Shown: positions 9,936-24,695 of the stretch, piece after piece | Layout of the letters: each line of letters starts with the position of its first letter | How positions within the stretch are numbered: position 1 is the first letter of the stretch | Assembly (NCBI GenBank): GCA_902806305.1 | Contig: CADCWC010000218.1 | Coordinates: forward strand, 1-24,936 | Direction: 5' to 3' | From: an uncultured Thermoleophilia bacterium | GTDB taxonomy: Bacteria > Actinomycetota > Thermoleophilia > Gaiellales > F1-60-MAGs149 | Length of the DNA stretch: 24,936 bases | Notes under the pieces: model-generated | Database searches by the model: none | What the model saw: only the letters and a program-made list of their open reading frames with translations | What the model was told of the DNA's origin: nothing | Made by a program: the position numbers and the translations under genes

Positions 9936-11450
9936 TCAGTGGACGCCGGTGCCGGTCAGGACGCGCTCCTCGTCGGGCGTCCGTGGCGCGGGCATTCGCA
10001 GCGTCAGCTTCGACTTGTCCTCGACGATCACCCGGTAGGCGAAGAAGGCGAGCGACATCGCGAGGACGAAGACGCCGACCAGGAGCTCCTTGTACTCGCC
10101 GTAGCCGGTGAGCTTGAAGGAGAGCGACCCGACGACGAGGATGATGACGTCGTAGACGAGCAGGACGGCGGCGATCGGCACCCACGCCGGTCCGACGCGC
10201 AGGGGCCGCGGCCACGCCGGGCGGTCCCGGCGCAGCAGCAGGAAGGCGGAGACGGCCGCCACGTGGGCGAACACGTAGCCGAGGTTCGACATCGTCAGGA
10301 TCTGGATCACGGCCGTGGGGCCGGCGAACAGGATCGTGACCGCGATGTTCATGACGGCGTCCAGGGTCATCGCGTTCCCGGGCACATGCCGTCGGTTGGC
10401 CTTGCCGAGCCAGCGCAGCGTCATGTCCGCCCGCGAGATGCCGTAGAGGGCACGCGACCCGTCCATGGTCGCCGTGTTCATCGACAGCAGGATGCCCGCG
10501 CAGAGCAGGATCACCGCGACCGACGTGAACCCCGTCCCGAGGATCGCCTCGAGGGCGGTCGTGTAGAACGAGTAGGCGTTCTCGACCGTGATGTTCTGGT
10601 CGCCGACGATGCCGACCGCGCCGAGCGGCAGCAGGCCGTAGACGAGGATGCCGAACACCGCGGCGGCCCGCAGCGCCTTCGGCGTGTCGTTCACCGGGTC
10701 CTTGTACTCGGCCGCGAACGTGGCGCAGCACTCGAAGCCGTACGCCGACCAGCACATGATGTAGAGCCAGGCGATCACCAGGCGCAGGCCGTTGTCGCCG
10801 CCGAAGCTGCCCCAGTCGACGTTGTTCGAGAGGTTGTCGGCGCTCCAGTCGCCCGTCAGGTAGGGCAGGAACATCAGGATCGCGAGCGGGATCAGGAGCA
10901 GCGCGCCCGTGATGTACGAGACCCACACCGCCGGGCGGACGCCCATGATGTTCGACAGCCAGAGCGCGATGATCAGGAAGATCGCGACGAAGATCGGGAA
11001 CGTGAAGGTCACGTCGACGATGCCGAGGCCGAGCGTGCGGTTCCAGCCGGACTCCGGGTCCGCGGTCCCCTCGAAGAACTGCGCCTGGATCAGGCCGCCG
11101 ATGATGATGCCGTTGACGGAGAGGACGACCGACCAGCCGAGCCAGTACCCGAAGGCGGCCATCGGGCCGACGAACGACGCGTAGCGCTTCCAGCCCTCGT
11201 GGGCGTAGAAGGCGATGCCGCCCGCGCGGTCCGGGAACATCGTCGACATCTCGGAGTAGATGACGTTGTGCAGGGCGCCGACGCAGACCGCGATCAGCCA
11301 CACGATCACCGCGCCCCAGCCGCCGAGCGACACGACCGAGAACCCGAGACCCGTCAGCAGGAACGCCGGATTCGCCATCGCGACGACGAAGCCGTCGAAC
11401 CACGACATTGCCCGAGCGAGTTCGCCGTCCTCTACCTCTGCAACCGCCAT
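9936..11450 (-). CDS. APC-family amino acid/amine permease
   Basis: About 12 hydrophobic segments; E..T.FPDRAGGIA, GYWLGW, WSAYGFE....FAAEYKDP..DTPKAL, DGSRALYG.S, LRR..P.WPRP; GGAGAAGG RBS; 504 aa. Confidence 0.92.
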   Translation of the reverse strand: MAVAEVEDGELARAMSWFDGFVVAMANPAFLLTGLGFSVVSLGGWGAVIVWLIAVCVGALHNVIYSEMSTMFPDRAGGIAFYAHEGWKRYASFVGPMAAFGYWLGWSVVLSVNGIIIGGLIQAQFFEGTADPESGWNRTLGLGIVDVTFTFPIFVAIFLIIALWLSNIMGVRPAVWVSYITGALLLIPLAILMFLPYLTGDWSADNLSNNVDWGSFGGDNGLRLVIAWLYIMCWSAYGFECCATFAAEYKDPVNDTPKALRAAAVFGILVYGLLPLGAVGIVGDQNITVENAYSFYTTALEAILGTGFTSVAVILLCAGILLSMNTATMDGSRALYGISRADMTLRWLGKANRRHVPGNAMTLDAVMNIAVTILFAGPTAVIQILTMSNLGYVFAHVAAVSAFLLLRRDRPAWPRPLRVGPAWVPIAAVLLVYDVIILVVGSLSFKLTGYGEYKELLVGVFVLAMSLAFFAYRVIVEDKSKLTLRMPAPRTPDEERVLTGTGVH

Positions 11451-12010: not shown

Positions 12011-13273
12011 GTGCTGCTCGCGCTGACGAACGCCCGCGTCTTCACGGCGACGGGCGAGCCCGCGCTCGCGTCGGGCGTCGTCGTGGTGGAGGACGCCCGG
12101 ATCCGCTCCGTCGACCCCTGGCCGACCGAGCTCCCGGAGGGCTGCGTCGCCGTGGACCTCGCGGGCCGGACGCTCCTGCCCGGCTTCGTCGACGCCCACG
12201 TGCACCTCGTCTACCGGGAGGGCCTGGACGACTGGTACACGTTCGAGCTCGCCACGCCGCTCGAGGCCGCCGCCGTCGACGCGACGATCAACGCCGGTCG
12301 GCTGCTCGAGATGGGCATCACGTCGGTGCGTGACGTCGGCACGCGCGGCAACATCGCCGTGGTGCTGCGGGACGCGATCCGGGGCGGCCGGCTGGGTGGG
12401 CCGCGCGTCCGCGCGTCGAAGCAGATCATCTCCGTCTCGGGCGGTCTCACGGATGTCCACCCGAGCCACCTGCCGATCGACGGGCGGCACGCCGCGACGA
12501 CCGGCGAACGGGTGACGGGGCCGTGGGAGGCCCGCGACGCGGTCCGCCGTCAGGTCAAGGACGGCGTCGACTGGATCAAGGTCGAGGCGAGCGGCACGTT
12601 CAACAGCCCGTACTCGCCCGGCGATCGCGAGACGATGTCGGCCGAGGAGCTCCGGGCGATCGTGGACGAGGCCTCCGACAAGGGCCGCCCCGTCGCCTGC
12701 CACGCCGAGTCGCGACGGAGCATCCTGCGGGCCGCCGCCGCTGGCGTGCGGACGATCGAGCACGCCGTCGACCTGGACGACGCGGCCGTCGAGGCCGTCC
12801 TCGAGGCCGGCGCGGCGATCTGTCCGACGATGGGGATCTACCGCAACCTGGCCGTCCGCGGCCGTGAGTTCGGGTTCGCCGACGAGGTGGTGGAGCGCAA
12901 CCTGGCCAATCACCGCCGCCACGTGGAGTCGATCCGCCGGGCCCACCGCGCGGGGCTGACGATCATCGCCGGGAGCGACGCCGGCTCGTCCCGGTTCCCG
13001 CACGACGGCGCGCTGCTGCGGGAGATCTGCCTCTACGTCGAGCTGGTCGGGATGACCGCGGGCGAGGCGCTCGTGACCGCGACCCGCGCGGCCGCGACGG
13101 TGATCGGGCTCGGCGACGAGGTCGGCACGATCGAGGCGGGCAAGCGGGCCGACCTCGTCGTGATCGCCGGCGATCCGCTCGGGCGCATCACGACGCTGAC
13201 CGACCCGGGCGCCGTGGAAGCTGTGCTGCAGGACGGCCGCGTCGTCGCGGGGGCCCTCCCCGGAATGGGCTGA
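12011..13273 (+). CDS. Metal-dependent amidohydrolase (prolidase/imidazolonepropionase-like subgroup)
   Basis: LLPGFVDAHVHL (HxH), G.TSVRDVG, WIKVEASG (putative carbamylated Lys), CHAES, IEHA, AGSDAG, G.IE.GKRADLVV; 420 aa. Confidence 0.92.
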   Translation: MLLALTNARVFTATGEPALASGVVVVEDARIRSVDPWPTELPEGCVAVDLAGRTLLPGFVDAHVHLVYREGLDDWYTFELATPLEAAAVDATINAGRLLEMGITSVRDVGTRGNIAVVLRDAIRGGRLGGPRVRASKQIISVSGGLTDVHPSHLPIDGRHAATTGERVTGPWEARDAVRRQVKDGVDWIKVEASGTFNSPYSPGDRETMSAEELRAIVDEASDKGRPVACHAESRRSILRAAAAGVRTIEHAVDLDDAAVEAVLEAGAAICPTMGIYRNLAVRGREFGFADEVVERNLANHRRHVESIRRAHRAGLTIIAGSDAGSSRFPHDGALLREICLYVELVGMTAGEALVTATRAAATVIGLGDEVGTIEAGKRADLVVIAGDPLGRITTLTDPGAVEAVLQDGRVVAGALPGMG

Positions 13274-13325: not shown

Positions 13326-14723
13326 TCAGGCGGGCGAGCCGCCGTTCGATGAGCCGTCGGCCTCGCCGAGCAGGCGCTCGGCCAGCTTGCGCTTCTCCTC
13401 GGGACCGAGCTTCTTGATCTCGTTCTCCATCGCGCGCGTGTTGACGACCTGGTTCCAGTAGTCGAGCGAGTCGTAGCCGAGCAGCGCCGTCTTGCCCACG
13501 AACTGGCGCAGCACCTCGTTCGTCGGGCCCATGACCCAGCCCGCCTTGCCGTCGCGCAGGTAGCGCTCGATGTCGAGCGGCTTCTTCTTGTAGCCCGTGC
13601 CGCCCGTGCAGTGCAGCATCTTGTCGACGACCCGGGCGACGTTCTTCGCGGCCCGGAACTTGATCTGCCACAGGAACGGCAGGTAGTCCGCGCGGGCGAG
13701 CTCGCCGACCGGCGGATTGCGTCGCGCGTCGTCCGTGACCTTGTCGAGCGCCTGGGCGACCGAGAACGTGAACGCACGGGCCGAGTTCGTCTCGATGATC
13801 GCCTCGCCGACGGCGTCCTGGATCGTCGGGTAGTCGCAGACCCGCAGGCCGACGTCCTTGTGCGTCTTGCGGGTCGTGTGGGAGATCGCGATGTCGATCG
13901 CGCCGAGCGCGATGCCGCTCCAGACGCCGGAGGACCCGATCAGGAAGTTCGGATCGACGGACTCGTCGTTCGAGGCGGCGCCGTCACCGATCGGACCGAC
14001 GAGCTGCTGCTCGGGCACGAAGCCCCAGTCGACGAGCAGGGAGCCGGACTGGTTGCCCCGCAGGCCGAGGGCGTCCCACTCCTGCGGCTCGGCCTGGATC
14101 TGCGAGGCGTCGATCAGGAAGACGGACAGGTTCGAGTAGTCGCCGCCGTAGTCGGGCGACGTCGTCTGGCAGACGTAGAAGTCGGCGAAGCCGCCCGAGG
14201 TCGTCCACGACGCCTTCTTCAGCACCTCGAAGCCGCCCTCGACCCTACGGGCGCCCGACGCCATCGGGTACCAGAAGTGGGAGCCGGTCTCGGGGTCCGA
14301 GTAGGAGAGCGTGCCGATCAGCCCGTCCTTGACCTTCTTCAGGTAGTTCTCGACGAAGTAGTCCGTCTGGCGCAGGCGGAGCGTCTCGACGGCGCCCGTG
14401 TGCATCACGTAGCACATGGCACAGGAGGCGTCGCCGTAGCGCGCGATCGTCTCCGTGACCCACGCGTAGAAGACGTGGTTCTGGCCCAGCCCGCCCCACT
14501 CCTTGGGCAGCATGACGCCGAGGAAGCCGTCCGGCCCGAGCGCCTCGAGGCTCTCGCGCGGGAACGTCAGCGTGGCGTCGTTGTGACGCGCCCGCGGCCG
14601 GATCTCCGTCTCGCAGATCTCCCGAAGGCGCGCCAGGAGTCCGATCTGCTCCTCGTTCAGGAACCAGACCGGGTCGAACATCGGGTCGAGTCCGTTCTTG
14701 GTCTCCTCGGCCACCGCGGCCAT
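13326..14723 (-). CDS. Acyl-CoA dehydrogenase-fold flavoprotein (possibly a flavin-dependent monooxygenase)
   Basis: D....FP.E.L..LG..G.LG..LP.EWGGLG, SDPETGSH, K.SW.TSGG.AD, W..LGLRG..SG, GGTGY....IERYLRD; GAAGGAGG RBS; 465 aa. Confidence 0.88.
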   Translation of the reverse strand: MAAVAEETKNGLDPMFDPVWFLNEEQIGLLARLREICETEIRPRARHNDATLTFPRESLEALGPDGFLGVMLPKEWGGLGQNHVFYAWVTETIARYGDASCAMCYVMHTGAVETLRLRQTDYFVENYLKKVKDGLIGTLSYSDPETGSHFWYPMASGARRVEGGFEVLKKASWTTSGGFADFYVCQTTSPDYGGDYSNLSVFLIDASQIQAEPQEWDALGLRGNQSGSLLVDWGFVPEQQLVGPIGDGAASNDESVDPNFLIGSSGVWSGIALGAIDIAISHTTRKTHKDVGLRVCDYPTIQDAVGEAIIETNSARAFTFSVAQALDKVTDDARRNPPVGELARADYLPFLWQIKFRAAKNVARVVDKMLHCTGGTGYKKKPLDIERYLRDGKAGWVMGPTNEVLRQFVGKTALLGYDSLDYWNQVVNTRAMENEIKKLGPEEKRKLAERLLGEADGSSNGGSPA

Positions 14724-14943: not shown

Positions 14944-16419
14944 ATGGGAGCGATCGAGAGCGGGCTCCAGCTCGAGAACCTGGTGTCGACCGTGCTCGCG
15001 TCGCCGAGGGTGGCCCCGCCGCCCGCGACGCTCGGCGAGGCCCGGAACGCGCCGGGGCGTGACGCGCAGATCGCCGACATCCAGGCCCGGATCGAGCGCG
15101 AGGGGATCCAGTACGTCTTCTTCCAGCAGGTGTCGGTGTCCGGGCACGTCAACGGCAAGGGCGTCGTCTCGGACTTCTTCGCCCAGGTGGCGAAGAACGG
15201 CTACCAGCTCGTCTACGGCGCCACGGCCGACCTGTTCCTCGACCGGCACGAGAACTACATCGGGTTCGGCCCGCACACCTCCGAGCTCGCGGCGATCGCC
15301 GACCTCGACACGTTCAGCGTGCTCCCGTGGGACCCGCGCGTGGCCCGCGTGTTCTGCGACTGCTACGACACGGAGACGGGCGGGCTGCTCGAGTCGGACC
15401 CCCGGCAGAACCTGAAGGTGGTGGCCGACGAGGTCGAGGCCGAGCTGTCGGAGCTGCTCGGCACGCAGGTCAGCTTCCTGTGCGGGATCGAGCCGGAGAT
15501 GATGTGGTTCGGGCAGAAGCCGTCGGGCGGCCAGGAGCCGATCGGGCTGACCAAGCCCTGGTGCTACCACATCAACCAGTTCGAGCAGCTGCGCGAGGTG
15601 ATCCTCGACGTCGTGGCCTACGGCAAGGCGCTCGGGCTGCGGATGAGCTACGGCGACCACGAGGACTCGCCGGGCCAGCTCGAGCTGAACTTCGCGTTCG
15701 ACCGCGCCTCGCGGACGGCCGACAACCTGACCACGTACCGCCAGATCTGCGCGGCGGTCGGCCGGAAGCACGGCCTGTTCCCGTCGTTCATGCCGAAGCC
15801 GTTCACGGGCGTGTCGGCGAACGGGGCGCACCACCACTTCACGCTCGTCGACGAGTCGGGTCGGAACGTCTTCTACGACCCGAACGGCCCGGCCACGCTC
15901 TCGGACGCGGGGCGGAGCTTCCTCGGCGGCATCCTCAAGCACTACCGCGCGCTGACCTGCGTCTCGGCGCCGACGGTCAACTCGTACAAGCGCTTCTTCG
16001 ACGAGGGCTTCTGGGCCCCGATCCACGCCGACTACGGCTGGCAGAACCGGACCTGCGCCGTGCGGGTGGCCGGCTCGGGGCGCTTCGAGTACCGCTCGGT
16101 CGACTCGGCCTGCAACCCGTACCTGACGCAGGCCGCGCTGCTGACCTGCGGGCTCGAGGGCATCCGCGACAAGATCGACCCCGGTCCGCCGCAGTCCGAG
16201 AACGTCTACGAGGTGCTCGACCGGGGCACCACGATCGGCCGCGTGCCGAACACGCTCGGCGAGGCCCTGGACGCGCTGCACGAGGACGAGACGGTCAGGG
16301 GGGCGCTCCGCGGGCACCTCTACGAGGTCTTCCGGCACTACAAGCGCGACGAGTGGGAGCGCTTCTGCTCGGCCGTCACCGACTGGGAGCGCGACCAGTA
16401 CTTCGACGTCCTGCCGTGA
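14944..16419 (+). CDS. gmaS: Gamma-glutamylmethylamide synthetase-like glutamine synthetase-family protein (GlnT/GmaS)
   Basis: GIEPE, DHEDSPGQLELNF, FMPKPF.G.SANGAHHH, YKR....WAP....YG..NRT..VR, RFEYRS.D..CNPYL. The DHED motif and adjacency to glxBCD/mgsABC favour GmaS over GlnA. GGAGG RBS; 491 aa. Confidence 0.8.
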   Translation: MGAIESGLQLENLVSTVLASPRVAPPPATLGEARNAPGRDAQIADIQARIEREGIQYVFFQQVSVSGHVNGKGVVSDFFAQVAKNGYQLVYGATADLFLDRHENYIGFGPHTSELAAIADLDTFSVLPWDPRVARVFCDCYDTETGGLLESDPRQNLKVVADEVEAELSELLGTQVSFLCGIEPEMMWFGQKPSGGQEPIGLTKPWCYHINQFEQLREVILDVVAYGKALGLRMSYGDHEDSPGQLELNFAFDRASRTADNLTTYRQICAAVGRKHGLFPSFMPKPFTGVSANGAHHHFTLVDESGRNVFYDPNGPATLSDAGRSFLGGILKHYRALTCVSAPTVNSYKRFFDEGFWAPIHADYGWQNRTCAVRVAGSGRFEYRSVDSACNPYLTQAALLTCGLEGIRDKIDPGPPQSENVYEVLDRGTTIGRVPNTLGEALDALHEDETVRGALRGHLYEVFRHYKRDEWERFCSAVTDWERDQYFDVLP

Positions 16420-16617: not shown

Positions 16618-17541
16618 ATGTGCGGGATCGCCGGGATCATCTACCGCGACGGGGAGCACGACGTGGGGCGCGACCTCACGCGCATGCTCCAGTCGATGAA
16701 GCACCGCGGGCCGGACTCCACCGGCTTCGCGCTCTACGGGCCGGTCGGTCCGCAGATCGTCGTGCGCTACACGCTCGCCGACGCGAACGACCCGCGCGGC
16801 ATGCACTTCGACGAGCGCATGGTCGGCAACCGACGTGAGGTCTCCTCGCGCCTGCGCAGCGCGGGCGCCGTCATCGAGGAGCTCGAGCAGGAGACGGCCT
16901 ACGCCGACCGCGCGGTGCTGACCTACGACGGCGACCTGAAGACGCTCACCGACCTGCTCGAGGACATCCAGGGCTGCGAGGTCCTGTCGCTCGGCCACTC
17001 GCTCGAGATCGTCAAGGACCTCGGCGACGCCGAGGCCGTCTGCTCGCAGTACGGCCTGGAGACGTTCCGCGGCACGCACGCCATCGGCCACGCGCGGATG
17101 GCCACCGAGTCCGAGGTCGACATCTCGGGCGCCCACCCGTACTGGGCCTACCCGTTCCCGGACGTGGCCGTGGTCCACAACGGCCAGCTGACGAACTACT
17201 TCCAGTGGCGCCGCCGCCTGGAGCGGAGCGGCCACCGGTTCCAGTCCGAGTGCGACTCGGAGATCATCGCCGTCTACGTGGCCGAGCGGATGACGGAGGG
17301 CTACACCCTCGAGGAGGCCATGCGGCAGAGCCTCGAGGAGCTCGACGGCGTCTTCACCTACATGTGCGTGACCGCGGACGCCCTCGGCGTGGCGAAGGAC
17401 GAGATGGCCGCCAAGCCGCTCGTGCTCTACGAATCGGACCAGCTCGTGGCCGTGGCCTCCGAGGGCACGGCGATCGAGACGCTGACCGACGGCGACACGT
17501 ACGACCCCTACGAGGGCGAGGTGATGGTATGGCAGCGGTAG
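16618..17541 (+). CDS. mgsA: Class II glutamine amidotransferase-like subunit (N-methylglutamate synthase subunit A, GlxB)
   Basis: N-terminal MCGIAG (Ntn Cys), HRGPDSTG, HAIGHARMATES, HP, VHNGQLTNY, SECDSE, LDG.FT; 307 aa. Confidence 0.85.
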   Translation: MCGIAGIIYRDGEHDVGRDLTRMLQSMKHRGPDSTGFALYGPVGPQIVVRYTLADANDPRGMHFDERMVGNRREVSSRLRSAGAVIEELEQETAYADRAVLTYDGDLKTLTDLLEDIQGCEVLSLGHSLEIVKDLGDAEAVCSQYGLETFRGTHAIGHARMATESEVDISGAHPYWAYPFPDVAVVHNGQLTNYFQWRRRLERSGHRFQSECDSEIIAVYVAERMTEGYTLEEAMRQSLEELDGVFTYMCVTADALGVAKDEMAAKPLVLYESDQLVAVASEGTAIETLTDGDTYDPYEGEVMVWQR

Positions 17542-18317
17542 GCGAGCGCGCGGTCAGCTACGACGCACGCGGCCTGGCGGAGCCGAACGCGGTCGCGCCC
17601 GAGACGGCGGTCGTCGACGGCCAGACGGCCGAGCTCGACGCGGCCGACCTCTCGATCCGACAGATCAACCTGGAGCTCCGGCGCCTCGTCTACGGGCTCG
17701 GCGTGACCGACGTCGTGGTCCGCAACCCCGGCTCGAAGCACTCGCTCGGCGTGGGCATCCTGACGCGCTGCCGGATCCGCTTCGAGGGCAGCCTCGGCTA
17801 CTTCGCCTGCGGGCTGCTCGACGGGCCCGAGGTGCACATCACGGGGCGCGTGGGCTGGGCGGCGTGCGAGAACATGATGTCCGGCGTCGTGGTCATCGAG
17901 GGGAACGCCGGCTCCCAGACGGGGGCGGCGCTGCGCGGCGGCGACCTCGTGGTCAAGGGCCGCGCCGGCGCGCGCTCGGGCATCGACCAGAAGGGCGGCA
18001 CCATCATCACGATGGGCAGCGTCGGGGCGATGACGGGCTTCATGATGCAGCGCGGCCGCCAGGTCATCTGCGGCGACGCGGGCCCGGGGCTCGGCGACTC
18101 GATGTACGACGGGACGATCTACGTGGCCGGCAAGGTCAAGGCCCTCGGGATCGACTGCGTGCCCGGTGAGTGGACGGACGCCGACACCGAGTTCATCGAG
18201 CGCAAGTTCCGCATCTACGACCTCGGCTCGCCGCCGTCGTTCGACAAGTTCGTCTGCGGCAAGAAGCTCTACAACTACGACAGCCTCGAGCCGGCCGAGC
18301 GCAAGCTCGTCCTCTAG
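17529..18317 (+). CDS. mgsB: GXGXG/FmdC-like subunit (N-methylglutamate synthase subunit B, GlxC)
   Basis: GSLGYFACG, G.VGW...ENMMSG, GNAGSQTGA.LRGG, G.R.GI..KGG, MTGFMMQRG, GDSMYDG.IYV; overlaps the mgsA end by 13 nt; 262 aa. Confidence 0.87.
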   Translation: MAAVGERAVSYDARGLAEPNAVAPETAVVDGQTAELDAADLSIRQINLELRRLVYGLGVTDVVVRNPGSKHSLGVGILTRCRIRFEGSLGYFACGLLDGPEVHITGRVGWAACENMMSGVVVIEGNAGSQTGAALRGGDLVVKGRAGARSGIDQKGGTIITMGSVGAMTGFMMQRGRQVICGDAGPGLGDSMYDGTIYVAGKVKALGIDCVPGEWTDADTEFIERKFRIYDLGSPPSFDKFVCGKKLYNYDSLEPAERKLVL

Positions 18318-18331
18318 GACCGGGAGACCAC

Positions 18332-19798
18332 ATGGCGGCCACCGACGACATCCGGCAGCACCCGGACCGGGCCAACATCGACCAGCAGCGCAGCGTGCTC
18401 GGGCACTCGCAGATCTTCACGCCGGAGGTCATCGACGACATCCACGTGAAGTCGGAGCTCGGCCGCTACCGGATGCGCGGCTTCTCGATGTTCAAGAAGA
18501 TCCCGCACTGGGACGAGCTGATGTTCATGCCCGGCACGCTCACGCGCTTCGTGATCGAGGGCTACCGCGAGAAGTGCGAGACGAAGACCGTGCTCGGCGC
18601 GCGCTTCGCGAAGAACCCGCTGACGCTCGACATCCCGATCTACATCACGGGCATGAGCTTCGGCGCGCTCTCGATCGAGGCGAAGATGGCGCTCGCCAAG
18701 GGCGCCTCGATGGCCGGGACGGCGACCTGCTCGGGCGAGGGCGGCATGATCCCGCCCGAGCGCGAGCTCTCGACCAAGTGGTACTACCAGGTCATCCAGA
18801 GCCGGTACGGGTTCAACCCGCACCACCTGATGCTGGCCGACGCGGCCGAGTTCTTCATCGGCCAGGGCTGCAAGGTCGGGCTCGGCGGGCACCTGATGGG
18901 CCAGAAGGTCACGGAGCAGGTGGCCGAGATGCGCTCGCTGCCCGTCGGCATCGACCAGCGCTCGCCCGCCCGGCACCCGGACTGGCTCGGCCCGGACGAC
19001 CTGTCGCTGAAGATCCAGGAGATCCGCGAGGCGACCGACTACCGGATCCCGATCCAGCTGAAGCTCGGCGCCGCGCGCGTCTACGACGACGTGCGGATGG
19101 CGGCCAAGTGCGGCCCCGACATCATCTACCTGGACGGCGCCGAGGGCTCGACGGGCGCCGGGCCGCACACGGCGACCGAGGAGACCGGCATCCCGCTGAT
19201 GGCGGCCATCCCCGAGGCGCGGCGCGCCCTCGAGGACGTCGGCCTGGCCGACGAGATCGACCTCGTGGTGGCGGGAGGCATCCGGAACGGCGGCGACATC
19301 GCCAAGTGCATCGCGCTCGGGGCCAAGGCCGTGGCCATCGGCCACTCGGCGCTGATCGCGCTGAACTGCAACAAGGAGATCCCGGGCGTCACCGACTACG
19401 AGGGGACGATCGGGGTCAAGGCCGGGCGCTGCTACCACTGCCACACGGGCCGCTGCCCGGTCGGCGTGACGACGCAGGATCCGGAGCTGCGGGCCCGCCT
19501 GGAGGTCGACGCCGCCGCCGAGCGGGTCTACAACTTCCTGCACGCGATGACGCTCGAGCTCCAGATGCTGGCCCGGGCCTGCGGCAAGACGGACGTGCAC
19601 AGCCTCGAGCCCGAGGACCTCTGCGCACTGACCGTCGAGGCCTCGGCGATGGCCAAGGTGCCGCTCGCGGGCACGACCTACATCCCGGGCGTGACCGAGC
19701 AGCGCACGCTCGACGAGATCAAGGGCCTCGTGCAGGGCCTCGTGCCCCAGCCGCACGGCGAGTCCGACCGCGAGTTCGTGCGACCGGCGGCCGACTGA
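18332..19798 (+). CDS. mgsC: FMN-binding glutamate synthase family subunit (N-methylglutamate synthase subunit C, GlxD)
   Basis: ITGMSFGALS, SGEGGM, SRYGF, IGQGCKVGLGGHL.G.KV, SPARHPD, DG.EG.TGA, GGIRNG.D.AK..ALGA, CYHCHTGRCP.G..TQD ([3Fe-4S] motif); 488 aa. Confidence 0.9.
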   Translation: MAATDDIRQHPDRANIDQQRSVLGHSQIFTPEVIDDIHVKSELGRYRMRGFSMFKKIPHWDELMFMPGTLTRFVIEGYREKCETKTVLGARFAKNPLTLDIPIYITGMSFGALSIEAKMALAKGASMAGTATCSGEGGMIPPERELSTKWYYQVIQSRYGFNPHHLMLADAAEFFIGQGCKVGLGGHLMGQKVTEQVAEMRSLPVGIDQRSPARHPDWLGPDDLSLKIQEIREATDYRIPIQLKLGAARVYDDVRMAAKCGPDIIYLDGAEGSTGAGPHTATEETGIPLMAAIPEARRALEDVGLADEIDLVVAGGIRNGGDIAKCIALGAKAVAIGHSALIALNCNKEIPGVTDYEGTIGVKAGRCYHCHTGRCPVGVTTQDPELRARLEVDAAAERVYNFLHAMTLELQMLARACGKTDVHSLEPEDLCALTVEASAMAKVPLAGTTYIPGVTEQRTLDEIKGLVQGLVPQPHGESDREFVRPAAD

Positions 19799-20361
19799 TG
19801 GCCCCCGACGAGCACATCCTGAACGACCCGGACCAGATGCACCACGACCCGCACGCGGGCGGTCACGCCACGGCCGAGGGCGGCCCGGGCGGCGACGAGC
19901 AGCACGCGCAGAGCGTGACGGGGCACCACCCCGAGCGCGCGCAGTGGACGATGGGCACCTCGATCGACTCGGAGGCGCTCTGGGGCCGACGGTTCCCGTA
20001 CCAGGAGGACCTGTCCCTGGTCGAGGACGTCGACCTGGTGGCGGCGACGCCCGGGGCCGACATCAACTGGCTCGAGGACGTCGACCTCCTCCAGGAGGAG
20101 GGCATCCCGGCCGTCTTCGACCGCTACTCCAACTGCTTCCTCAAGATCCACTTCCCGATCCCGGCGGGGCGCGAGAACGAGATCGCCCGCAAGGTCCTGA
20201 TCAAGCACCTGCAGTCGGGCAACTCCTACGGGATCCGGATGAAGGAGAAGCACGCCAAGTTCGCGCAGCCGGAGCTCGGGCCGTGGGTGGCGAACTCGCG
20301 GACGGTGGGGGAGAACTACACCCCGCCGGTGCTCGAGGGCTGGGAGCCGCCCGTCCACTGA
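19798..20361 (+). CDS. Hypothetical protein with His-rich N-terminus, translationally coupled to mgsC
   Basis: TGATG overlap at 19796-19800; GC3-rich codons; followed by a terminator hairpin; 187 aa; no family recognised. Confidence 0.8.
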   Translation: MAPDEHILNDPDQMHHDPHAGGHATAEGGPGGDEQHAQSVTGHHPERAQWTMGTSIDSEALWGRRFPYQEDLSLVEDVDLVAATPGADINWLEDVDLLQEEGIPAVFDRYSNCFLKIHFPIPAGRENEIARKVLIKHLQSGNSYGIRMKEKHAKFAQPELGPWVANSRTVGENYTPPVLEGWEPPVH

Positions 20362-20370
20362 CCGCCGTGT

Positions 20371-20399
20371 GACCGGCGCCCGTGGGGCGGGCGCCGGTC
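20371..20399 (+). terminator. Terminator hairpin ending the mgsABC-orf187 unit
   Basis: GACCGGCGCCCG / CGGGCGCCGGTC 12-bp stem, 5-nt loop, 9 nt after the stop. Confidence 0.7.
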
Positions 20400-20637
20400 G
20401 CGCGTCACCACCTCGGCGGTACGGTGCCGGCATGGGCGCGGCGAAGCCGGCGGTGGCGTTGCGGGGCGGCCGCGTCGTGCGGTACGCGCGGCACGACGAT
20501 CTCCGCACGGCCCTGGACGCGGCACGACTCGCGTGGCCGACGAGGTCCGGGTCGAAGGACGGTCCGGCGCCGCCGGCCTGCACGCCTGACGGTCGTCCGG
20601 ATCGTCGACGTCGTCTCCGACCTGGGGCGGTAGCGGC

Positions 20638-21414
20638 TCAGGCCCCGAGCGCCCGCGAGACCTCGCGGCCGGCCTGGACCAGCGCGGGCCGGGCGACGTC
20701 CATCGCGTCCGGCGTGAAGCGGGCGGCGGGCCCCTGCAGCCCGAGGACGGCCGCCAGGTCGCCGCGCGCGTCGAGGACGGGGACGGCCACCGCGTTGAGG
20801 TCCGGCTCGCGCTCGCCGACGGCGCGGGCCACGCCCTCGAGCCGGATCCGTTCGACCTCCCGCCGCAGCGCCGCCGGGTCGGTGATCGTCCGGGACGTGT
20901 AGCCCGTCAACGGGCCGTCCGGGTCCGCCACGACCCCGTCACGACCGAACGCGAGCATGACCTTGCCGACGGCCGTGGCGTGCGCCACGCTCGGTCGGCC
21001 GACGCGGGCCACGGAGATCACCGTCCCGGCCCGGCCGGGCACGAAGTCGGCGGTCACGGCCTCGTCGCCCGCGGGCAGGGACAGCGTGGCCGTCTCGCCG
21101 TGGCGGTCGACGAGGTCCTCGAGGAACGGCCGCGCCAGCGCGCGGACGTCCAGACGGGCCAGGACGGCGTTCGCGAGCTGCAGCACGCGCGCGCCGAGAC
21201 GGTAGCGGCCGCTGTCCGGCAGGTGCTCCACGTAGCCCGCCGCGGTCAGCGTGGCCAGGACGCGCGACACGGTGGCGGCGTTGATCGCGGTGCGGCGGCT
21301 GATCTCCGAGGTGCCGAGCTCCCCGCCGGGAGCGGCGCCGAGGGTGTCCAGGACCTGCGTCGCCCGTGCGACCGCCGCCAGTGTCCGAACGGCCGGGACT
21401 CCCGTCCGGCCCAC
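20638..21414 (-). CDS. IclR-family transcriptional regulator
   Basis: LAAVARATQVLD.L...G.SEISRRT.IN.ATVSRVL.TL...GYV, AHATAVGKVMLA, AVAVPV; 258 aa. Confidence 0.93.
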   Translation of the reverse strand: MGRTGVPAVRTLAAVARATQVLDTLGAAPGGELGTSEISRRTAINAATVSRVLATLTAAGYVEHLPDSGRYRLGARVLQLANAVLARLDVRALARPFLEDLVDRHGETATLSLPAGDEAVTADFVPGRAGTVISVARVGRPSVAHATAVGKVMLAFGRDGVVADPDGPLTGYTSRTITDPAALRREVERIRLEGVARAVGEREPDLNAVAVPVLDARGDLAAVLGLQGPAARFTPDAMDVARPALVQAGREVSRALGA

Positions 21415-21508
21415 GTCAGGCGCCCCGACGGACGGTGGTACGCTGGCGGCCGGTCGTGCCGTCCGAACCCCGAGGGAGCGCCGTCCTGCCCGTACCGATC
21501 ACTGCCGC

Positions 21509-23308
21509 ATGAGCGCCGCCCCCCGCCCGTTCGACGTCCCGGTCGCCGTCCCCGCGCCGGACGTCGAGCTGCTCCATGACGTGGTGCGCGCGGTCTCGTC
21601 GAGCCTCGAGCTGCCGGTCGTGCTGAGCTCCGTCGTCGAGCTCGTCACGCGCGCCGTCGGGTGCCACGCCTGCTACGTCTTCCTCGCCGACCAGAGCGGC
21701 CGGATGGTGCTCGAGGCGTGCAGCTCCGAGCGCTACGCCGACTCCGTCGGCAAGGTGGTGCTCGAGCCGGGCGAGGGCCTCGCCGGGTGGGTGGCGCGCC
21801 GCCGGATGCCCGTCTTCATCGCCGAGGATGCGCTCGCCGACCCGCGCGTCCGGATCCTCGACCAGTTCGAGGAGCACAAGTACCAGTCGCTCGTCTCGCT
21901 GCCGCTGATCGGCAAGGGCGGCGAGGTCTTCGGCGTCATCGCCGCCCACGGCGCCGCGCCGCGCGAGTTCACCGCCGCGGAGCAGCGCTTCCTGCTCTCG
22001 AGCGCCGCCCTGGCCGCCGGGGCGATCGAGAACGCCCGGCTGTACGGCGAGACCTCGCGGCGCGTGGACGTCCTGGAGCGCCTCGTGCAGCTGTCGCGCA
22101 GCATCGCCGAGGGCGAGACGATCGACGTGCTGCTCCGCGACGTCTGCTCGCGCCTCCTGCCTCTTCTCGGCGCGGCGTCGTGTCGGCTCTTCCTGCGCGA
22201 CGACGACCACGCCCGGCTGCGGCTGCGCGCCTACGCGCCGCCGGGCAGCTGCGACGGCGGTGTGACGTCGATCGGCATCGAGGACGTCGGAGCGGCGGTC
22301 GGGCCCGACCGGCACGGCGTCGAACGCGTCGCGCGCCTGCTCGGCGACGAGACGGCCCAGGCGGCCGAGTGGCTCTTCCAGCCGCTGCTCGTCTCGGGTG
22401 AACTGCTCGGCCTGCTCGCCGTCCGCGGTCGTGGCGGCCGGCGCTTCGGGTCCGAGGACCGCGACCTCGCGGCGACCGCGATGGCCCAGGCCGCCGTCGC
22501 GGTCGAGAAGATCCGGCTGCTCGAACGGCTCGAGGAGCGGAACCTGATCAAGGACTTCTTCGACGACCTCGCCGCCGGTGACAGCGCGGCGGCCCGCGGC
22601 CGGGAACGGCGACTGAGCTGCGATCTGGCCACGCCGCGGGTCGTCCTGATCGCGACCCGCTACGGACCACACGCGGCCGGCGCGGACGAGAGCGGCTGGG
22701 CCGCCGCCCTCGAAGCCCGCCTCGCCGTGCGCTTCCCGGCCGCGCTCTTCGACCGCAGCGAGCACGGCCTCCGCGCGCTGCTCCCGGTCACGCCCGCGTC
22801 CGAGGCGGAGGCGCGGGCCTGGGTGCGGGAGGCGCACGCCGCCGTGTCGTCCGAGGACCTGCCGGTCGCGGTCGGCCTGTCCGAGGTCTGTACCGGCCGA
22901 CCGGGCTACGTGGCGGGCTTCGAGGAGGCGAACCTCGCCCTCTCGGCGGCCGCCGTCCTGCACGGCAGGCCGTCCGTCATGGGGTTCGACGAGCTCGGCC
23001 CGTACAAGTACCTGCTGCGGCTGCCGCGCGGCACGCGCGATCGCCACTGCGACCGGCTGCGTCCGCTGCTCGAGTACGACCGGGACCACGGGTCGCAGCT
23101 CTTCCTGACCCTCGAGGAGTACTTCCGGCGCCGCGGCCGCGTGGCCGCCACGGCGGCGAGCCTCTACATCCACCCGAACACGCTCCGCCAACGCCTGGGC
23201 CGGATCGCCGCGCTCACCGGTCTCGACGTCGAGCGCGAGGACCCGCTCACGCTCGAGCTCGCCATGAAGCTCGTGCGCCTCGAGGACTCCGTCACCCGCG
23301 GCACCTGA
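21509..23308 (+). CDS. GAF-GAF-PucR/CdaR-type transcriptional regulator
   Basis: Two GAF-like segments (GEGLAGWVA...PVFI..DA..DPR; SL..LPL..GV) plus C-terminal L..TLE.Y....G.V..TA..LYIHPNTLRQRL.RI..LTG HTH; start trimmed to MSAAPRPF; 599 aa. Confidence 0.9.
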   Translation: MSAAPRPFDVPVAVPAPDVELLHDVVRAVSSSLELPVVLSSVVELVTRAVGCHACYVFLADQSGRMVLEACSSERYADSVGKVVLEPGEGLAGWVARRRMPVFIAEDALADPRVRILDQFEEHKYQSLVSLPLIGKGGEVFGVIAAHGAAPREFTAAEQRFLLSSAALAAGAIENARLYGETSRRVDVLERLVQLSRSIAEGETIDVLLRDVCSRLLPLLGAASCRLFLRDDDHARLRLRAYAPPGSCDGGVTSIGIEDVGAAVGPDRHGVERVARLLGDETAQAAEWLFQPLLVSGELLGLLAVRGRGGRRFGSEDRDLAATAMAQAAVAVEKIRLLERLEERNLIKDFFDDLAAGDSAAARGRERRLSCDLATPRVVLIATRYGPHAAGADESGWAAALEARLAVRFPAALFDRSEHGLRALLPVTPASEAEARAWVREAHAAVSSEDLPVAVGLSEVCTGRPGYVAGFEEANLALSAAAVLHGRPSVMGFDELGPYKYLLRLPRGTRDRHCDRLRPLLEYDRDHGSQLFLTLEEYFRRRGRVAATAASLYIHPNTLRQRLGRIAALTGLDVEREDPLTLELAMKLVRLEDSVTRGT

Positions 23309-23337: not shown

Positions 23338-24648
23338 TCAGCTCCAGGGGTAGGGGCTGTGCGAGACCGGGTGCAGGTCGCCGGTCGCGAAGCGCTCGTA
23401 GCGGAACGGGTAGAGCAGCGACGAGTGCTCGCCGAGCAGCACGCGGGCGACCTCCCGTCCGACGCCGATCATCTTGTAGCCGTGGTTCGAGTCGGCGATC
23501 ACGTAGACGTTCGGGCGCATCTCGTCGAAGACCGGGAAGTTGTCGACCGTGAACGCCCCGACACCGCCCGACCGGACGGTCTTGTAGGCCGAGCGCATCC
23601 CCGAGAAGCGCTCCATGCAGTGCGAGAGCGCCGCGACCCACATGTCGGCGAAGCCCGGCTCCACGGAGGAGCTCGGGTACGGGTCGACCTGGAAGTCGTG
23701 TCCCTTCGGGAGCGGTGACGCGCCGCCCTGCACGCCGTGGCGGTCCCGCTTGAAGTAGATGCCCCACAGCTCGTCCGTGATCAGCCGGCCGTCGTCGTCG
23801 TGGAGCGGCGCATCGGAGTCGACGTGGATCACCGGCGGGATCCCGCCCTCGGCGGTGGCGAACAGCGACGGGTCCATCGTGATCTCGCCCTCCTGGAGGT
23901 ACCAGAAGGTCCACATCTCGCGGTCGCGGTGCACCTCGCCCTCGGGTGTGCGCACGTCGAGGCGCTGCGGCAGCCCGAGCATCCCCCAGATCTCCTTGAC
24001 CCACGGTCCGGCGCCCACGACCACCTGCTCGACCTGGATCGAGCCGCCGTCGGTCTCGACCGTCGTGACGGCACCGGAGTTGTCGAGCTCGAACCCGGTC
24101 ACCCGGACGCCCTCGAGGATCTGGACGCCCTCGCCGCGGGCCTTCCCGGCCAGCCCCTGGATGGCGTCGACGTTGTAGGCGAACCCGCCCTTGTGCTCGT
24201 GCAGGCAGACCGTCACGCCGCGGCCGCGCCAGTCCGGGTAGAGGCCCCGCATGTAGTCGCGGACCTCGCGCTCGCCCACGATCAGGTCCGAGGGGTAGCC
24301 GATGCGCTGCTGCCGCTCGTGCACCTCGATCAGGTCCTGCTCCTGGACCTGCGGGCCGAGCGCCATGTAGCCCACGCTGTTGTAGGCGTACGCCGCCGGG
24401 TCCTCCTCCCAGACCTCGACGTTGGCGGCCATCAGCTCGGCCATCGCGGGCTGGTAGTAGTTGTTGCGGACGACGCCGCACGCGATCCCCGAGGCCCCCG
24501 CGGCCACGCCGGTCTTGTCCACGACCAGGATGTCCTCGCCGCCGCCCTGGCCGCGGGCCTTCAGCTCCTTGGCCAGGTGGTAGGCCGTGGAGAGGCCGTG
24601 GACGCCCGCGCCGATGACGAGGTAGCGCGTGGACTTGGGGACCTGCAT
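23338..24648 (-). CDS. FAD-dependent oxidoreductase, DAO/sarcosine oxidase beta (SoxB/MgdA)-like
   Basis: YLVIGAGVHGLSTAYHLA, VVDK....GASG.ACGVVR.NY, VTG, VVVGAGPW, T.DNFPVFD, GYK...VG; GGAGG RBS 8 nt before ATG 24648; 436 aa. Confidence 0.88.
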   Translation of the reverse strand: MQVPKSTRYLVIGAGVHGLSTAYHLAKELKARGQGGGEDILVVDKTGVAAGASGIACGVVRNNYYQPAMAELMAANVEVWEEDPAAYAYNSVGYMALGPQVQEQDLIEVHERQQRIGYPSDLIVGEREVRDYMRGLYPDWRGRGVTVCLHEHKGGFAYNVDAIQGLAGKARGEGVQILEGVRVTGFELDNSGAVTTVETDGGSIQVEQVVVGAGPWVKEIWGMLGLPQRLDVRTPEGEVHRDREMWTFWYLQEGEITMDPSLFATAEGGIPPVIHVDSDAPLHDDDGRLITDELWGIYFKRDRHGVQGGASPLPKGHDFQVDPYPSSSVEPGFADMWVAALSHCMERFSGMRSAYKTVRSGGVGAFTVDNFPVFDEMRPNVYVIADSNHGYKMIGVGREVARVLLGEHSSLLYPFRYERFATGDLHPVSHSPYPWS

Positions 24649-24667
24649 GGTGTCGACCTCCGGCCGT

Positions 24668-24695
24668 ATTGCCATGACGGCAATCGTGTTGCCAT
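24668..24695. promoter_or_regulatory. Candidate operator: ATTGCC-N5-GGCAAT inverted repeat plus second TTGCCAT half-site
   Basis: Perfect inverted repeat at 24668-24684; TTGCCAT direct repeat at 24669 and 24689 (20-bp period); AT-enriched, just upstream of the oxidoreductase RBS. Confidence 0.55.

What the first reader, a model, noticed from the sequence alone, without database searches (positions are those of the whole stretch)
19798..20361. Unknown 187-aa protein coupled to mgsC: candidate fourth component of N-methylglutamate synthase
Seen: the ATG overlaps the mgsC TGA (TGATG) and the gene precedes the operon terminator, so it is co-expressed. The first 44 residues hold 8 His in a D/G/P-rich flexible tail, followed by a compact domain (WLEDVDLLQEEGIPAVFDRYSNCFLKIHFPIP...HLQSGNSYGIRMKEKHAKF). 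Established: described MgsABC has three subunits. Inference: an accessory subunit, metal/Fe-S chaperone or C1-handling enzyme; I recognise no family.
Basis: partly seen in the sequence, partly recalled or inferred. Interest (0 to 1): 0.7.

Follow-up and report, generated by a model that had tools for sequence, protein, structure and literature searches.

The report
Unnamed partner of iron-sulfur MgsC
This small gene is real and strongly conserved, has no known family or fold, and in soil Actinomycetota always sits directly after the flavin subunit of an unstudied, probably iron-sulfur-bearing relative of N-methylglutamate synthase, so it is most likely an unrecognised extra subunit of that enzyme.

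Summary
ORF 19798-20361 encodes 187 aa. Its ATG overlaps the stop of the MgsC-like gene (TGATG), the first 44 residues hold 8 His, and a strong GC hairpin follows the stop.

The protein ("X") belongs to a large unnamed family: 7609 clusters, all "hypothetical", with no Pfam, NCBIfam, PDB or fold match. The roughly 135-aa core is 65-84% identical across classes of Actinomycetota and ends in an invariant C-terminal His. The His-rich tail occurs only in the window's near relatives.

X lies directly after MgsC in 79 of 79 testable loci. Its start lies within -8 to +13 nt of the MgsC stop in 73 of 75 loci.

X travels with only one MgsC subfamily (86-90% identical). That subfamily keeps the three Cys that ligate the 3Fe-4S cluster of GltB, plus a fourth Cys, an insertion and a C-terminal tail. 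Classical MgsC (Aminobacter, Paracoccus, actinobacterial paralogues) lacks all of these and has no X.

Best reading (about 0.6): X is an obligate accessory subunit of an Fe-S-type MgsABC-like enzyme. Binding is not shown: the complex prediction gave no verdict.

Other agents in this scan reached the same reading on other genomes. I found no paper describing it.

The parts
19798..20361 (+). Gene X: 187-aa acidic protein (pI 5.0) of an unnamed family, the finding itself. The stop codon is 20359-20361.
   Evidence: clean ORF, 7609 homologous clusters, 59 invariant columns in 45 sequences.
19798..19947 (+). Lineage-specific His-rich, disordered N-terminal tail (residues 1-50, 8 His in the first 44).
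   Evidence: conserved in frame only among 91-98% identical relatives and shorter in P0003; absent from most of the family; pLDDT below 50.
19948..20358 (+). Conserved core (residues 51-187) with motifs RFPYQED, AATPG.D.NWLED, PAVFDRYSN, ARKVL..HLQSGNSYG and the invariant C-terminal ...LEGWE.P.H.
   Evidence: 65-84% identity across classes of Actinomycetota; pLDDT 70-96 with few secondary-structure elements.
18332..19798 (+). MgsC-like FMN subunit (488 aa) of the X-linked, Fe-S-type subfamily.
   Evidence: PF01645, 7.6e-91; start; 86-90% identical next to every X.
19367..19456 (+). Cys motif C346-x20-C367-x2-C370-x4-C375-P in MgsC. C346, C370 and C375 align with the three 3Fe-4S ligands of this genome's own GltB.
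   Evidence: Classical MgsC has D / W,F / D at these positions.
17529..18317 (+). MgsB-like GXGXG subunit (262 aa), with a ~30-aa N-terminal extension specific to the X-linked type.
16618..17541 (+). MgsA-like class-II (Ntn) glutamine amidotransferase, 307 aa, starting MCGIAG.
14944..16419 (+). GS-like ligase (GmaS/GlnT-like, 491 aa), first gene of the five-gene block.
   Evidence: (TIGR03105, 5e-99, below its cut-off).
20367..20403 (+). 17-bp GC-rich hairpin 6 nt after the X stop. A plausible U-less terminator of the block.
   Evidence: -55.6 kcal/mol for the 86-nt stretch, z -2.3. Not called by the T-tract scan.
23338..24675 (-). DAO-type FAD oxidoreductase, a frequent companion of the block.
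   Evidence: soxB-like, weak; an orthologue lies within 8 kb in 38 of 54 loci, often right after X.
20638..21414 (-). IclR-family regulator, convergent with X.
   Evidence: present in 24 of 54 loci.
13326..14723 (-). ACAD-fold flavoprotein, a recurrent neighbour.
   Evidence: 62-66% identical copies near X in other classes.
9936..11450 (-). Amino-acid permease, a recurrent neighbour. No Amt-type transporter was found instead.
   Evidence: permease in 18 of 54 loci, Amt in 0 of 54.

Best explanation
X is an obligate, stoichiometrically co-produced accessory subunit (a de facto 'MgsD') of a distinct, probably iron-sulfur-bearing version of the three-part MgsABC / GlxBCD enzyme. That enzyme works with a GS-like ligase in amine (probably methylated-amine) assimilation in Actinomycetota.

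Shown: X is a real, strongly constrained protein. It is always encoded immediately after, and translationally coupled to, the FMN subunit. It occurs only with the FMN-subunit subfamily that keeps the GltB-type cluster cysteines, an ~18-aa insertion and a C-terminal tail.

Inferred: X folds onto the complex. Its model is extended with few secondary-structure elements, and its constraint equals that of a core subunit. It most probably binds MgsC and/or MgsB near the subfamily-specific segments, where it could shape or shield the Fe-S site or dock a redox partner such as the frequently neighbouring DAO flavoprotein. The invariant C-terminal His (with H137 and H152) is a candidate functional residue. 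The His-rich N-tail is a lineage-specific add-on.
For: - Family size and constraint: 7609 clusters with a 65-84% identical core. Only 176 representatives at 50% clustering, and no distant relatives. 59 invariant columns in 45 sequences, including the terminal His.
- Synteny: X directly follows MgsC in 79/79 loci with upstream DNA, while the flanks differ.
- Coupling: the X start lies within -8 to +13 nt of the MgsC stop in 73/75 loci, and 36 of these overlap.
- Specificity: in 401 Actinomycetota genomes, all 12 other X carriers have X in this position. Eleven show an 86-90% identical MgsC beside it, and in the twelfth X sits at a contig start. Nine genomes that have only the 50-58% MgsC class have no X.
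- Classical clusters (Aminobacter, Paracoccus) have no X-like ORF.
- X-linked MgsC keeps the three GltB 3Fe-4S ligands plus a fourth Cys, and classical MgsC lacks them.
- X-linked MgsB has its own N-terminal extension.
- Divergence: X has mean pairwise distance 0.21, equal to MgsB (0.21) and lower than MgsA (0.26) and GS (0.33). Its distance matrix tracks MgsB (r 0.63) and MgsC (0.59) better than MgsA (0.44) or GS (0.32) (weak evidence).
- The AF2 model is confident over the core but extended, and it matches no known fold.
Against: - No direct evidence of binding exists.
- X has no cofactor motif and no conserved Cys, so a role at an Fe-S site can only be indirect.
- Gene adjacency and coupling also fit a maturation factor or a separate pathway enzyme.
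- The MgsC-X 'fusion' proteins in databases are frameshift artefacts of long-read assemblies, not Rosetta-stone evidence.
- The Fe-S cluster itself is inferred from cysteine positions only.
- All carriers are Actinomycetota, so part of the constancy reflects shared descent.
Confidence: 0.6

Rival explanations
1. X is a dedicated maturation or assembly factor, not a subunit of the finished enzyme. It would help insert the Fe-S cluster or FMN, or help assemble the three subunits. In the window's lineage the His-rich tail could deliver metal.
For: X co-occurs strictly with the Cys-bearing MgsC subfamily. It is small, acidic and partly disordered. The window's lineage has a His-rich tail.
Against: The tail is absent from most of the family. 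X has no conserved Cys and resembles no known Fe-S or flavin assembly protein. Tight translational coupling and constraint equal to MgsB fit 1:1 stoichiometry better than a catalytic helper.
Confidence: 0.14
2. X is a separate small enzyme or ligand-binding protein that acts on a pathway intermediate (for example a gamma-glutamyl-amide, an N-alkylglutamate, ammonia or formaldehyde). It would be encoded in the operon without binding MgsABC.
For: There are many invariant polar residues (D, E, H, Y, R, K, N). The neighbourhood is pathway-rich, with DAO, GcvT-like, ACAD-fold and FTHFS genes.
Against: The predicted structure is extended with a tiny core and no pocket-forming fold. X tracks the MgsC subfamily, not the variable downstream enzymes: DAO is present in only 38/54 loci and GcvT-like in some. 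X is absent from classical NMG clusters, which make the same intermediates.
Confidence: 0.12
3. X is a protein regulator (inhibitor or activator) of the synthase or of the GS-like ligase, comparable in logic to the small inactivating factors of cyanobacterial glutamine synthetase.
For: It is small and partly disordered and is encoded with its presumed target.
Against: Regulators are rarely translationally coupled 1:1 with their target, and rarely as conserved as its catalytic subunits. X tracks GS least of all (r 0.32). The GS gene comes in two classes and is sometimes displaced, while X stays with MgsC.
Confidence: 0.08
4. The ORF is not a gene, or only the part from M52 is translated, and the upstream frame is open simply because the DNA is GC-rich.
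For: The X frame is open from 18166, far into mgsC. An internal ATG at 19951 would give a protein the size of most homologues.
Against: The core is conserved at protein level in thousands of sequences. The tail is conserved in frame, without indels and with its His kept, among 11 relatives. A start at or next to the MgsC stop is the family rule.
Confidence: 0.03

Closest known systems
Classical N-methylglutamate synthase MgsABC with GmaS (glnT-glxBCD) of proteobacterial methylotrophs, here seen in Aminobacter sp. MSH1 pAM01 and Paracoccus yeei plasmids
   Same: It has the same four-part set: a GS-like ligase, a class-II amidotransferase with N-terminal Cys, a GXGXG protein and an FMN Glu_synthase-domain protein. 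The FMN subunits are about 50-53% identical.
   Different: Classical clusters have no fifth gene; glnT or sox/mgd genes follow mgsC directly. Their MgsC is about 442 aa and lacks the four Cys, the insertion and the C-terminal tail. Their MgsB lacks the N-terminal extension. They use an Amt transporter and four-subunit Sox/Mgd genes rather than a permease plus a single DAO.
Glutamate synthase large subunit GltB (FMN domain with 3Fe-4S cluster)
   Same: C346, C370 and C375 of the X-linked MgsC align with the three cluster cysteines of this genome's own GltB, including the C-P-V-G-x-T-T-Q context. The amidotransferase, FMN and GXGXG modules are the same domains, split into separate genes.
   Different: There is no central domain. 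No GltD-like beta subunit lies in the window or in 87 related loci. An extra Cys and an ~18-aa insertion sit between the first and second ligands. X has no counterpart in GltB or GltD (hhalign probability below 8%).
Small non-catalytic subunits of amine-oxidising flavoenzyme complexes (for example the sarcosine oxidase delta and gamma subunits)
   Same: These are also small proteins encoded inside amine-catabolic operons that exist only as parts of a complex. This is a resemblance in logic only.
   Different: No sequence or fold similarity was detected (Pfam at E up to 10; fold searches). X follows the synthase gene, not the oxidase, and stays there when the DAO gene is elsewhere.

Membership tests
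Classical N-methylglutamate synthase MgsABC (the enzyme X was proposed to join) | Adjacent genes for a class-II (Ntn-Cys) amidotransferase, a GXGXG protein and an FMN Glu_synthase-domain protein, together with a GS-like ligase | tested here: met
   GATase_6 (starts MCGIAG), GXGXG, PF01645 at 7.6e-91, TIGR03105-like GS.
Classical N-methylglutamate synthase MgsABC (the enzyme X was proposed to join) | FMN subunit of the classical type, as in clusters linked to sox/mgd genes (no Fe-S cysteines, about 442-444 aa) | tested here: not met
   the window's MgsC has C346, C367, C370 and C375 plus an insertion and a C-terminal tail. Aminobacter, Paracoccus and the actinobacterial paralogues have D / W,F / D at these positions. 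Identity between the two types is only 50-53%.
Classical N-methylglutamate synthase MgsABC (the enzyme X was proposed to join) | Pathway context: four-subunit N-methylglutamate dehydrogenase (mgdABCD / soxBDAG-like) and methylamine uptake | tested here: inconclusive
   The window has no mgd set and no Amt. It has a single DAO, an ACAD-fold protein and a permease. Related loci add GcvT-like, FTHFS and sometimes SoxD/A-like genes, so a folate-linked demethylation is plausible.
Classical N-methylglutamate synthase MgsABC (the enzyme X was proposed to join) | Enzyme activity: forms N-methylglutamate from methylamine or gamma-glutamylmethylamide | not testable with these tools
   Needs biochemistry.
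Glutamate synthase (GltB-type Fe-S flavoenzyme) | Three cysteines that ligate the 3Fe-4S cluster in the FMN domain | tested here: met
   aligned with the GltB of the same genome. Conserved in 32 of 32 X-linked MgsC sequences.
Glutamate synthase (GltB-type Fe-S flavoenzyme) | Electron-donating partner (GltD beta subunit) encoded alongside | tested here: not met
   E. coli GltD found nothing in the window or in 87 related loci.
Any described protein family or fold, for X itself | A significant match to a Pfam or NCBIfam model, a PDB sequence or a known fold | tested here: not met
   no model match; only noise at E of 0.015 or more; PDB profile, best E 0.25; Foldseek best E 1.1; Atlas TM 0.35 or less; VIA best Z 2.7. 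Weak fold searches do not prove a new fold.

The most novel reading that the evidence does not exclude
X is the defining fifth component of a previously unrecognised iron-sulfur, GOGAT-like amine-assimilating enzyme of soil Actinomycetota. The retained cluster makes the enzyme a true redox enzyme, unlike the redox-neutral classical NMG synthase. X forms the docking site that couples it to a flavoprotein partner (the neighbouring DAO), so that electrons from oxidation of the N-alkylglutamate product feed the synthase.
Probability: 0.15. Interest if true: 0.75.

Novelty: new variant of a known kind. Interest (0 to 1): 0.6.

Why it matters
The N-methylglutamate route is the main way many bacteria use methylated amines. 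Its synthase has been treated as a three-subunit, FMN-only enzyme.

The X-linked gene set is a second version of this machinery. It is abundant in soil and biocrust Actinomycetota (Thermoleophilia and others). It has GltB-type cluster cysteines and a fifth protein that no database names.

Genome annotation currently labels these clusters as ordinary glutamate-synthase-family proteins plus a hypothetical protein. If X is a subunit, attempts to reconstitute or engineer this enzyme from three genes may fail.

X is also a clean marker gene for separating the two enzyme types in metagenomes.

Tried and rejected
- Complex prediction of MgsC with X residues 50-187: score 0.00, no verdict. It counts neither for nor against binding.
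- AF2 of a database MgsC-X 'fusion' (P0283, alignment A3): the X part had the same confidence as X alone, and the MgsC-specific segments were disordered. Uninformative.
- Fusion search: 139 longer proteins join MgsC and X. Nearly all come from long-read ENA assemblies. Many have out-of-frame linkers, and neighbouring genes are split too. I rejected them as Rosetta-stone evidence.
- Fold and family searches for X gave nothing: Foldseek PDB, ESM Atlas by structure and by features, VIA wide, PDB sequence profile, Pfam at E up to 10.
- hhalign of X against E. coli GltB, GltD and the MgsC alignment: probabilities of 3%, 7% and 1%. The eye-catching DL.A.TPG similarity to GltB 800-871 is not significant.
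- Looking for X outside the phylum: the genome with the most divergent X (P0128) proved to be in the same phylum. The lead that SAR11-type operons carry other small unknown partners was not followed.
- Literature searches for a fourth Mgs subunit or an Fe-S-type enzyme found nothing.
- The His tail as the functional key was rejected, because it is confined to the window's near relatives.
Full report
**1. The observation**

The window is GC-rich DNA from a 2.78-Mb, 70%-complete metagenome-assembled genome. ORF 19798-20361 on the + strand gives a 187-aa protein, P0001. Its ATG shares one base with the TGA of the upstream gene (sequence ...GACTGATGGCC...).

The upstream genes on the same strand are:
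- a GS-like ligase (14944-16419; TIGR03105, 5e-99, below that model's cut-off);
- a class-II amidotransferase that starts MCGIAG (16618-17541);
- a GXGXG protein (17529-18317);
- an FMN Glu_synthase-domain protein (18332-19798; PF01645, 7.6e-91).

The first 44 residues of P0001 hold 8 His. A 17-bp GC hairpin begins 6 nt after the stop. It has no T tract, so the consensus terminator scan did not list it. The next gene, an IclR regulator, is convergent.

**2. It is a real gene of a large, unnamed, tightly constrained family**

- P0001 matches no Pfam or NCBIfam model. At E up to 10 only noise appears.
- The word-indexed search found 7609 protein clusters, all unnamed or 'hypothetical'. Typical members are 138-152 aa and 75-84% identical over residues ~52-187.
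- An exhaustive phmmer search of 1.84 billion 50%-identity representatives found only 176 proteins. The apparently divergent ones that I read (P0168, P0184, P0193, P0237) are frameshifted, and many others are fragments. The lowest identity among intact members that I read is about 64%, so no distant relatives are detectable.
- An alignment of 45 members has 59 invariant columns. Every intact member ends ...LEGWE.P.H with a C-terminal His.
- The N-terminal tail is variable. The His-rich version is kept, in frame and without indels, only among relatives 91-98% identical to the window's protein. It is already shorter at 74% identity. The tail is therefore translated but lineage-specific.

**3. 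Structure**

AlphaFold2 with this alignment gives:
- a disordered tail (residues 1-52, pLDDT below 50);
- a core with pLDDT 70-96 but very little regular structure: one small three-stranded sheet, two helices of 9-14 residues and several one-turn helices.

None of the following found a convincing match:
- Foldseek against the PDB: best E 1.1;
- shape search of the ESM Atlas: TM 0.35 or less;
- an exhaustive VIA-align pass over 48,161 PDB representatives: best Z 2.7;
- a PDB sequence-profile search.

An extended, confidently predicted chain with a tiny core is what one expects of a protein that folds onto a partner. That is inference, not a result.

**4. Context**

X sits directly after the MgsC-like gene in all of these:
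- four metagenomic loci with different flanks;
- the most divergent intact homologue;
- 80 species-representative genomes, all Thermoleophilia-type MAGs among the best hits.

It does so in 79 of 79 cases with enough upstream DNA. The whole GS-MgsA-MgsB-MgsC-X order is kept.

The X start lies within -8 to +13 nt of the MgsC stop in 73 of 75 loci, and 36 of these overlap. The window's TGATG junction is therefore the family rule.

X diverges as slowly as a core subunit. Mean pairwise distances over 63 loci:

| Protein | Mean pairwise distance |
|---|---|
| MgsC | 0.09 |
| X | 0.21 |
| MgsB | 0.21 |
| MgsA | 0.26 |
| GS | 0.33 |

The X distance matrix correlates best with MgsB (r 0.63) and MgsC (0.59), and less with MgsA (0.44) and GS (0.32). 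This is only suggestive, because all the proteins share one phylogeny.

**5. X marks one particular kind of MgsC**

In an even sample of 401 Actinomycetota genomes, the X profile hit 13, all at E of 1e-68 or better and none weaker. Searching the same genomes with the window's MgsC showed three classes:
- An 86-90% identical class lies next to X in 11 of the 12 other X carriers. In the twelfth, X sits at a contig start, so the upstream gene is cut off.
- A 50-58% class occurs in 17 genomes. Nine of these have no X anywhere.
- A 38-43% class is more remote.

The 50-58% class is the classical type. In one large genome it lies in an amt-GS-mgsA-mgsB-mgsC-DAO operon. The annotated proteobacterial clusters are equally distant at 50-53%: Aminobacter pAM01 has mgsA-mgsB-mgsC-glnT-soxB-soxD-soxA, and Paracoccus yeei is similar. 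No X-like ORF exists in any of these loci.

**6. What distinguishes the X-linked enzyme**

Alignment shows that X-linked MgsC carries ...LNC-NKEIPGVTDYEGT.GV.AG.-C-YH-C-HTGR-C-PVG.TTQDP. Classical MgsC has ...LGDN..P...G.YDDW(H/Q).G(R/K)DPAG at the same place.

Aligned with the canonical GltB of the same genome, C346, C370 and C375 fall on the three cysteines of the C-x5-C-x4-C-P motif. From established knowledge of glutamate synthase, those cysteines ligate the 3Fe-4S cluster. C367 is an additional conserved Cys.

The X-linked MgsC also has:
- an ~18-aa insertion between the first and second ligand;
- a 30-45-aa C-terminal tail.

The X-linked MgsB has a ~30-aa N-terminal extension.

So X belongs to a distinct orthologous set. 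Its FMN subunit probably binds an Fe-S cluster, unlike the classical FMN-only, redox-neutral N-methylglutamate synthase. No GltD-like electron-donor subunit is encoded in the window or in 87 related loci.

**7. What the pathway is**

Recurrent neighbours within 8 kb in 54 loci:

| Neighbour | Loci with it (of 54) |
|---|---|
| DAO-type flavoprotein orthologous to window 23338-24675 (often directly after X) | 38 |
| IclR regulator | 24 |
| Amino-acid permease | 18 |
| ACAD-fold flavoprotein | 11 |
| Amt transporter | 0 |

In eight further genomes, including other classes of the phylum, a GcvT-like folate protein, formate-tetrahydrofolate ligase and sometimes SoxD/SoxA-like genes also recur. This fits an amine route whose product is demethylated onto folate, that is, an N-methylglutamate-like pathway with different downstream enzymes. 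The substrate is not established.

**8. Mechanism**

The best-supported reading is that X is an obligate accessory subunit of this Fe-S-type MgsABC-like enzyme.

Shown:
- constant adjacency to MgsC;
- translational coupling;
- exclusive co-occurrence with one MgsC subfamily;
- constraint at the level of a subunit.

Inferred:
- physical binding;
- the binding site, most plausibly the subfamily-specific segments of MgsC and MgsB, which are disordered when modelled alone;
- a role in shaping or shielding the cluster site, or in docking a redox partner.

The invariant terminal His and H137/H152 are candidate functional residues. X has no conserved Cys and no cofactor motif, so it is unlikely to carry electrons itself.

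**9. Attempts to test binding failed to give an answer**

- The complex prediction of MgsC with the X core scored 0.00, which the tool rates as no verdict.
- Folding a database 'fusion' of the two proteins did not change the confidence of the X part.
- The 139 database fusions are mostly from error-prone long-read assemblies, and many have out-of-frame linkers. They arise because the X frame is open through the end of mgsC in GC-rich DNA.
Transcription is therefore not demonstrated here.

**10. Comparison with what is known, and novelty**

The accessible literature describes Gma/GmaS plus MgsA-C, also for Gram-positive methylotrophs, with no fourth subunit (PMC5023230).

The closest known system is the classical GmaS-MgsABC module. 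The X-linked set shares its parts list but fails the test of being the classical FMN subunit. In that one respect it resembles GltB.

Other agents of this scan reached the same reading for the same family on other genomes. I found the Fe-S motif and the subfamily link independently, before reading the more detailed notes. Those notes are not independent evidence.

I rate this a new variant of a known kind: an undescribed component attached to an undescribed version of a known enzyme. Interest is moderate to high, limited by the lack of any direct evidence for binding or function.

Noticed in passing
window 19367-19456 (MgsC residues 346-375): The MgsC-like subunit keeps the three GltB-type 3Fe-4S cysteines plus a fourth Cys and an ~18-aa insertion. 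Classical MgsC of Aminobacter, Paracoccus and the actinobacterial paralogues has acidic or aromatic residues there.
   Followed up: yes
window 14944-16419; loci L006-L085: The GS-like gene upstream of mgsA comes in two classes, 64-69% or 50-53% identical to the window's. In some loci it is displaced about 1.4 kb upstream by an inserted gene, while MgsABC-X stays constant.
   Followed up: partly
window 13326-14723 (-), 9936-11450 (-); L103-L109: An ACAD-fold flavoprotein (62-66% identical across classes), an amino-acid permease, a GcvT-like folate protein and formate-THF ligase recur around the block. The ACAD-fold protein's role in an amine pathway is unexplained. The window itself lacks the GcvT-like gene.
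   Followed up: partly
window 7149-8336 (+): An ORF matches the animal haem peroxidase family (PF03098, 1.9e-28), which is unusual for an actinobacterial MAG.
   Followed up: no
window 21251-23308 (+): A GAF-GGDEF_2-PucR-type regulator lies just beyond the IclR gene. PucR-type regulators also flank the block in L001 and L002.
   Followed up: no
P0272-P0384; L089, L090: About 139 database 'MgsC-X fusion' proteins, nearly all from long-read ENA assemblies, are mostly frameshift artefacts. The neighbouring DAO genes are split in the same contigs. They could mislead domain-architecture surveys.
   Followed up: yes
window 18166-20361 (+): The reading frame of X stays open for 1.6 kb upstream, through the whole of mgsC. 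An antisense ORF of 301 aa (19678-20583) overlaps X. Both are by-products of GC-rich coding DNA.
   Followed up: partly
window 12011-13273 (+): An amidohydrolase resembling the Caulobacter-type Xaa-Pro dipeptidase (NF051886, 3.5e-77) lies between the permease and the ACAD-fold gene. It was not found near X in the 54 other loci, so it may hint at this lineage's own substrate.
   Followed up: partly
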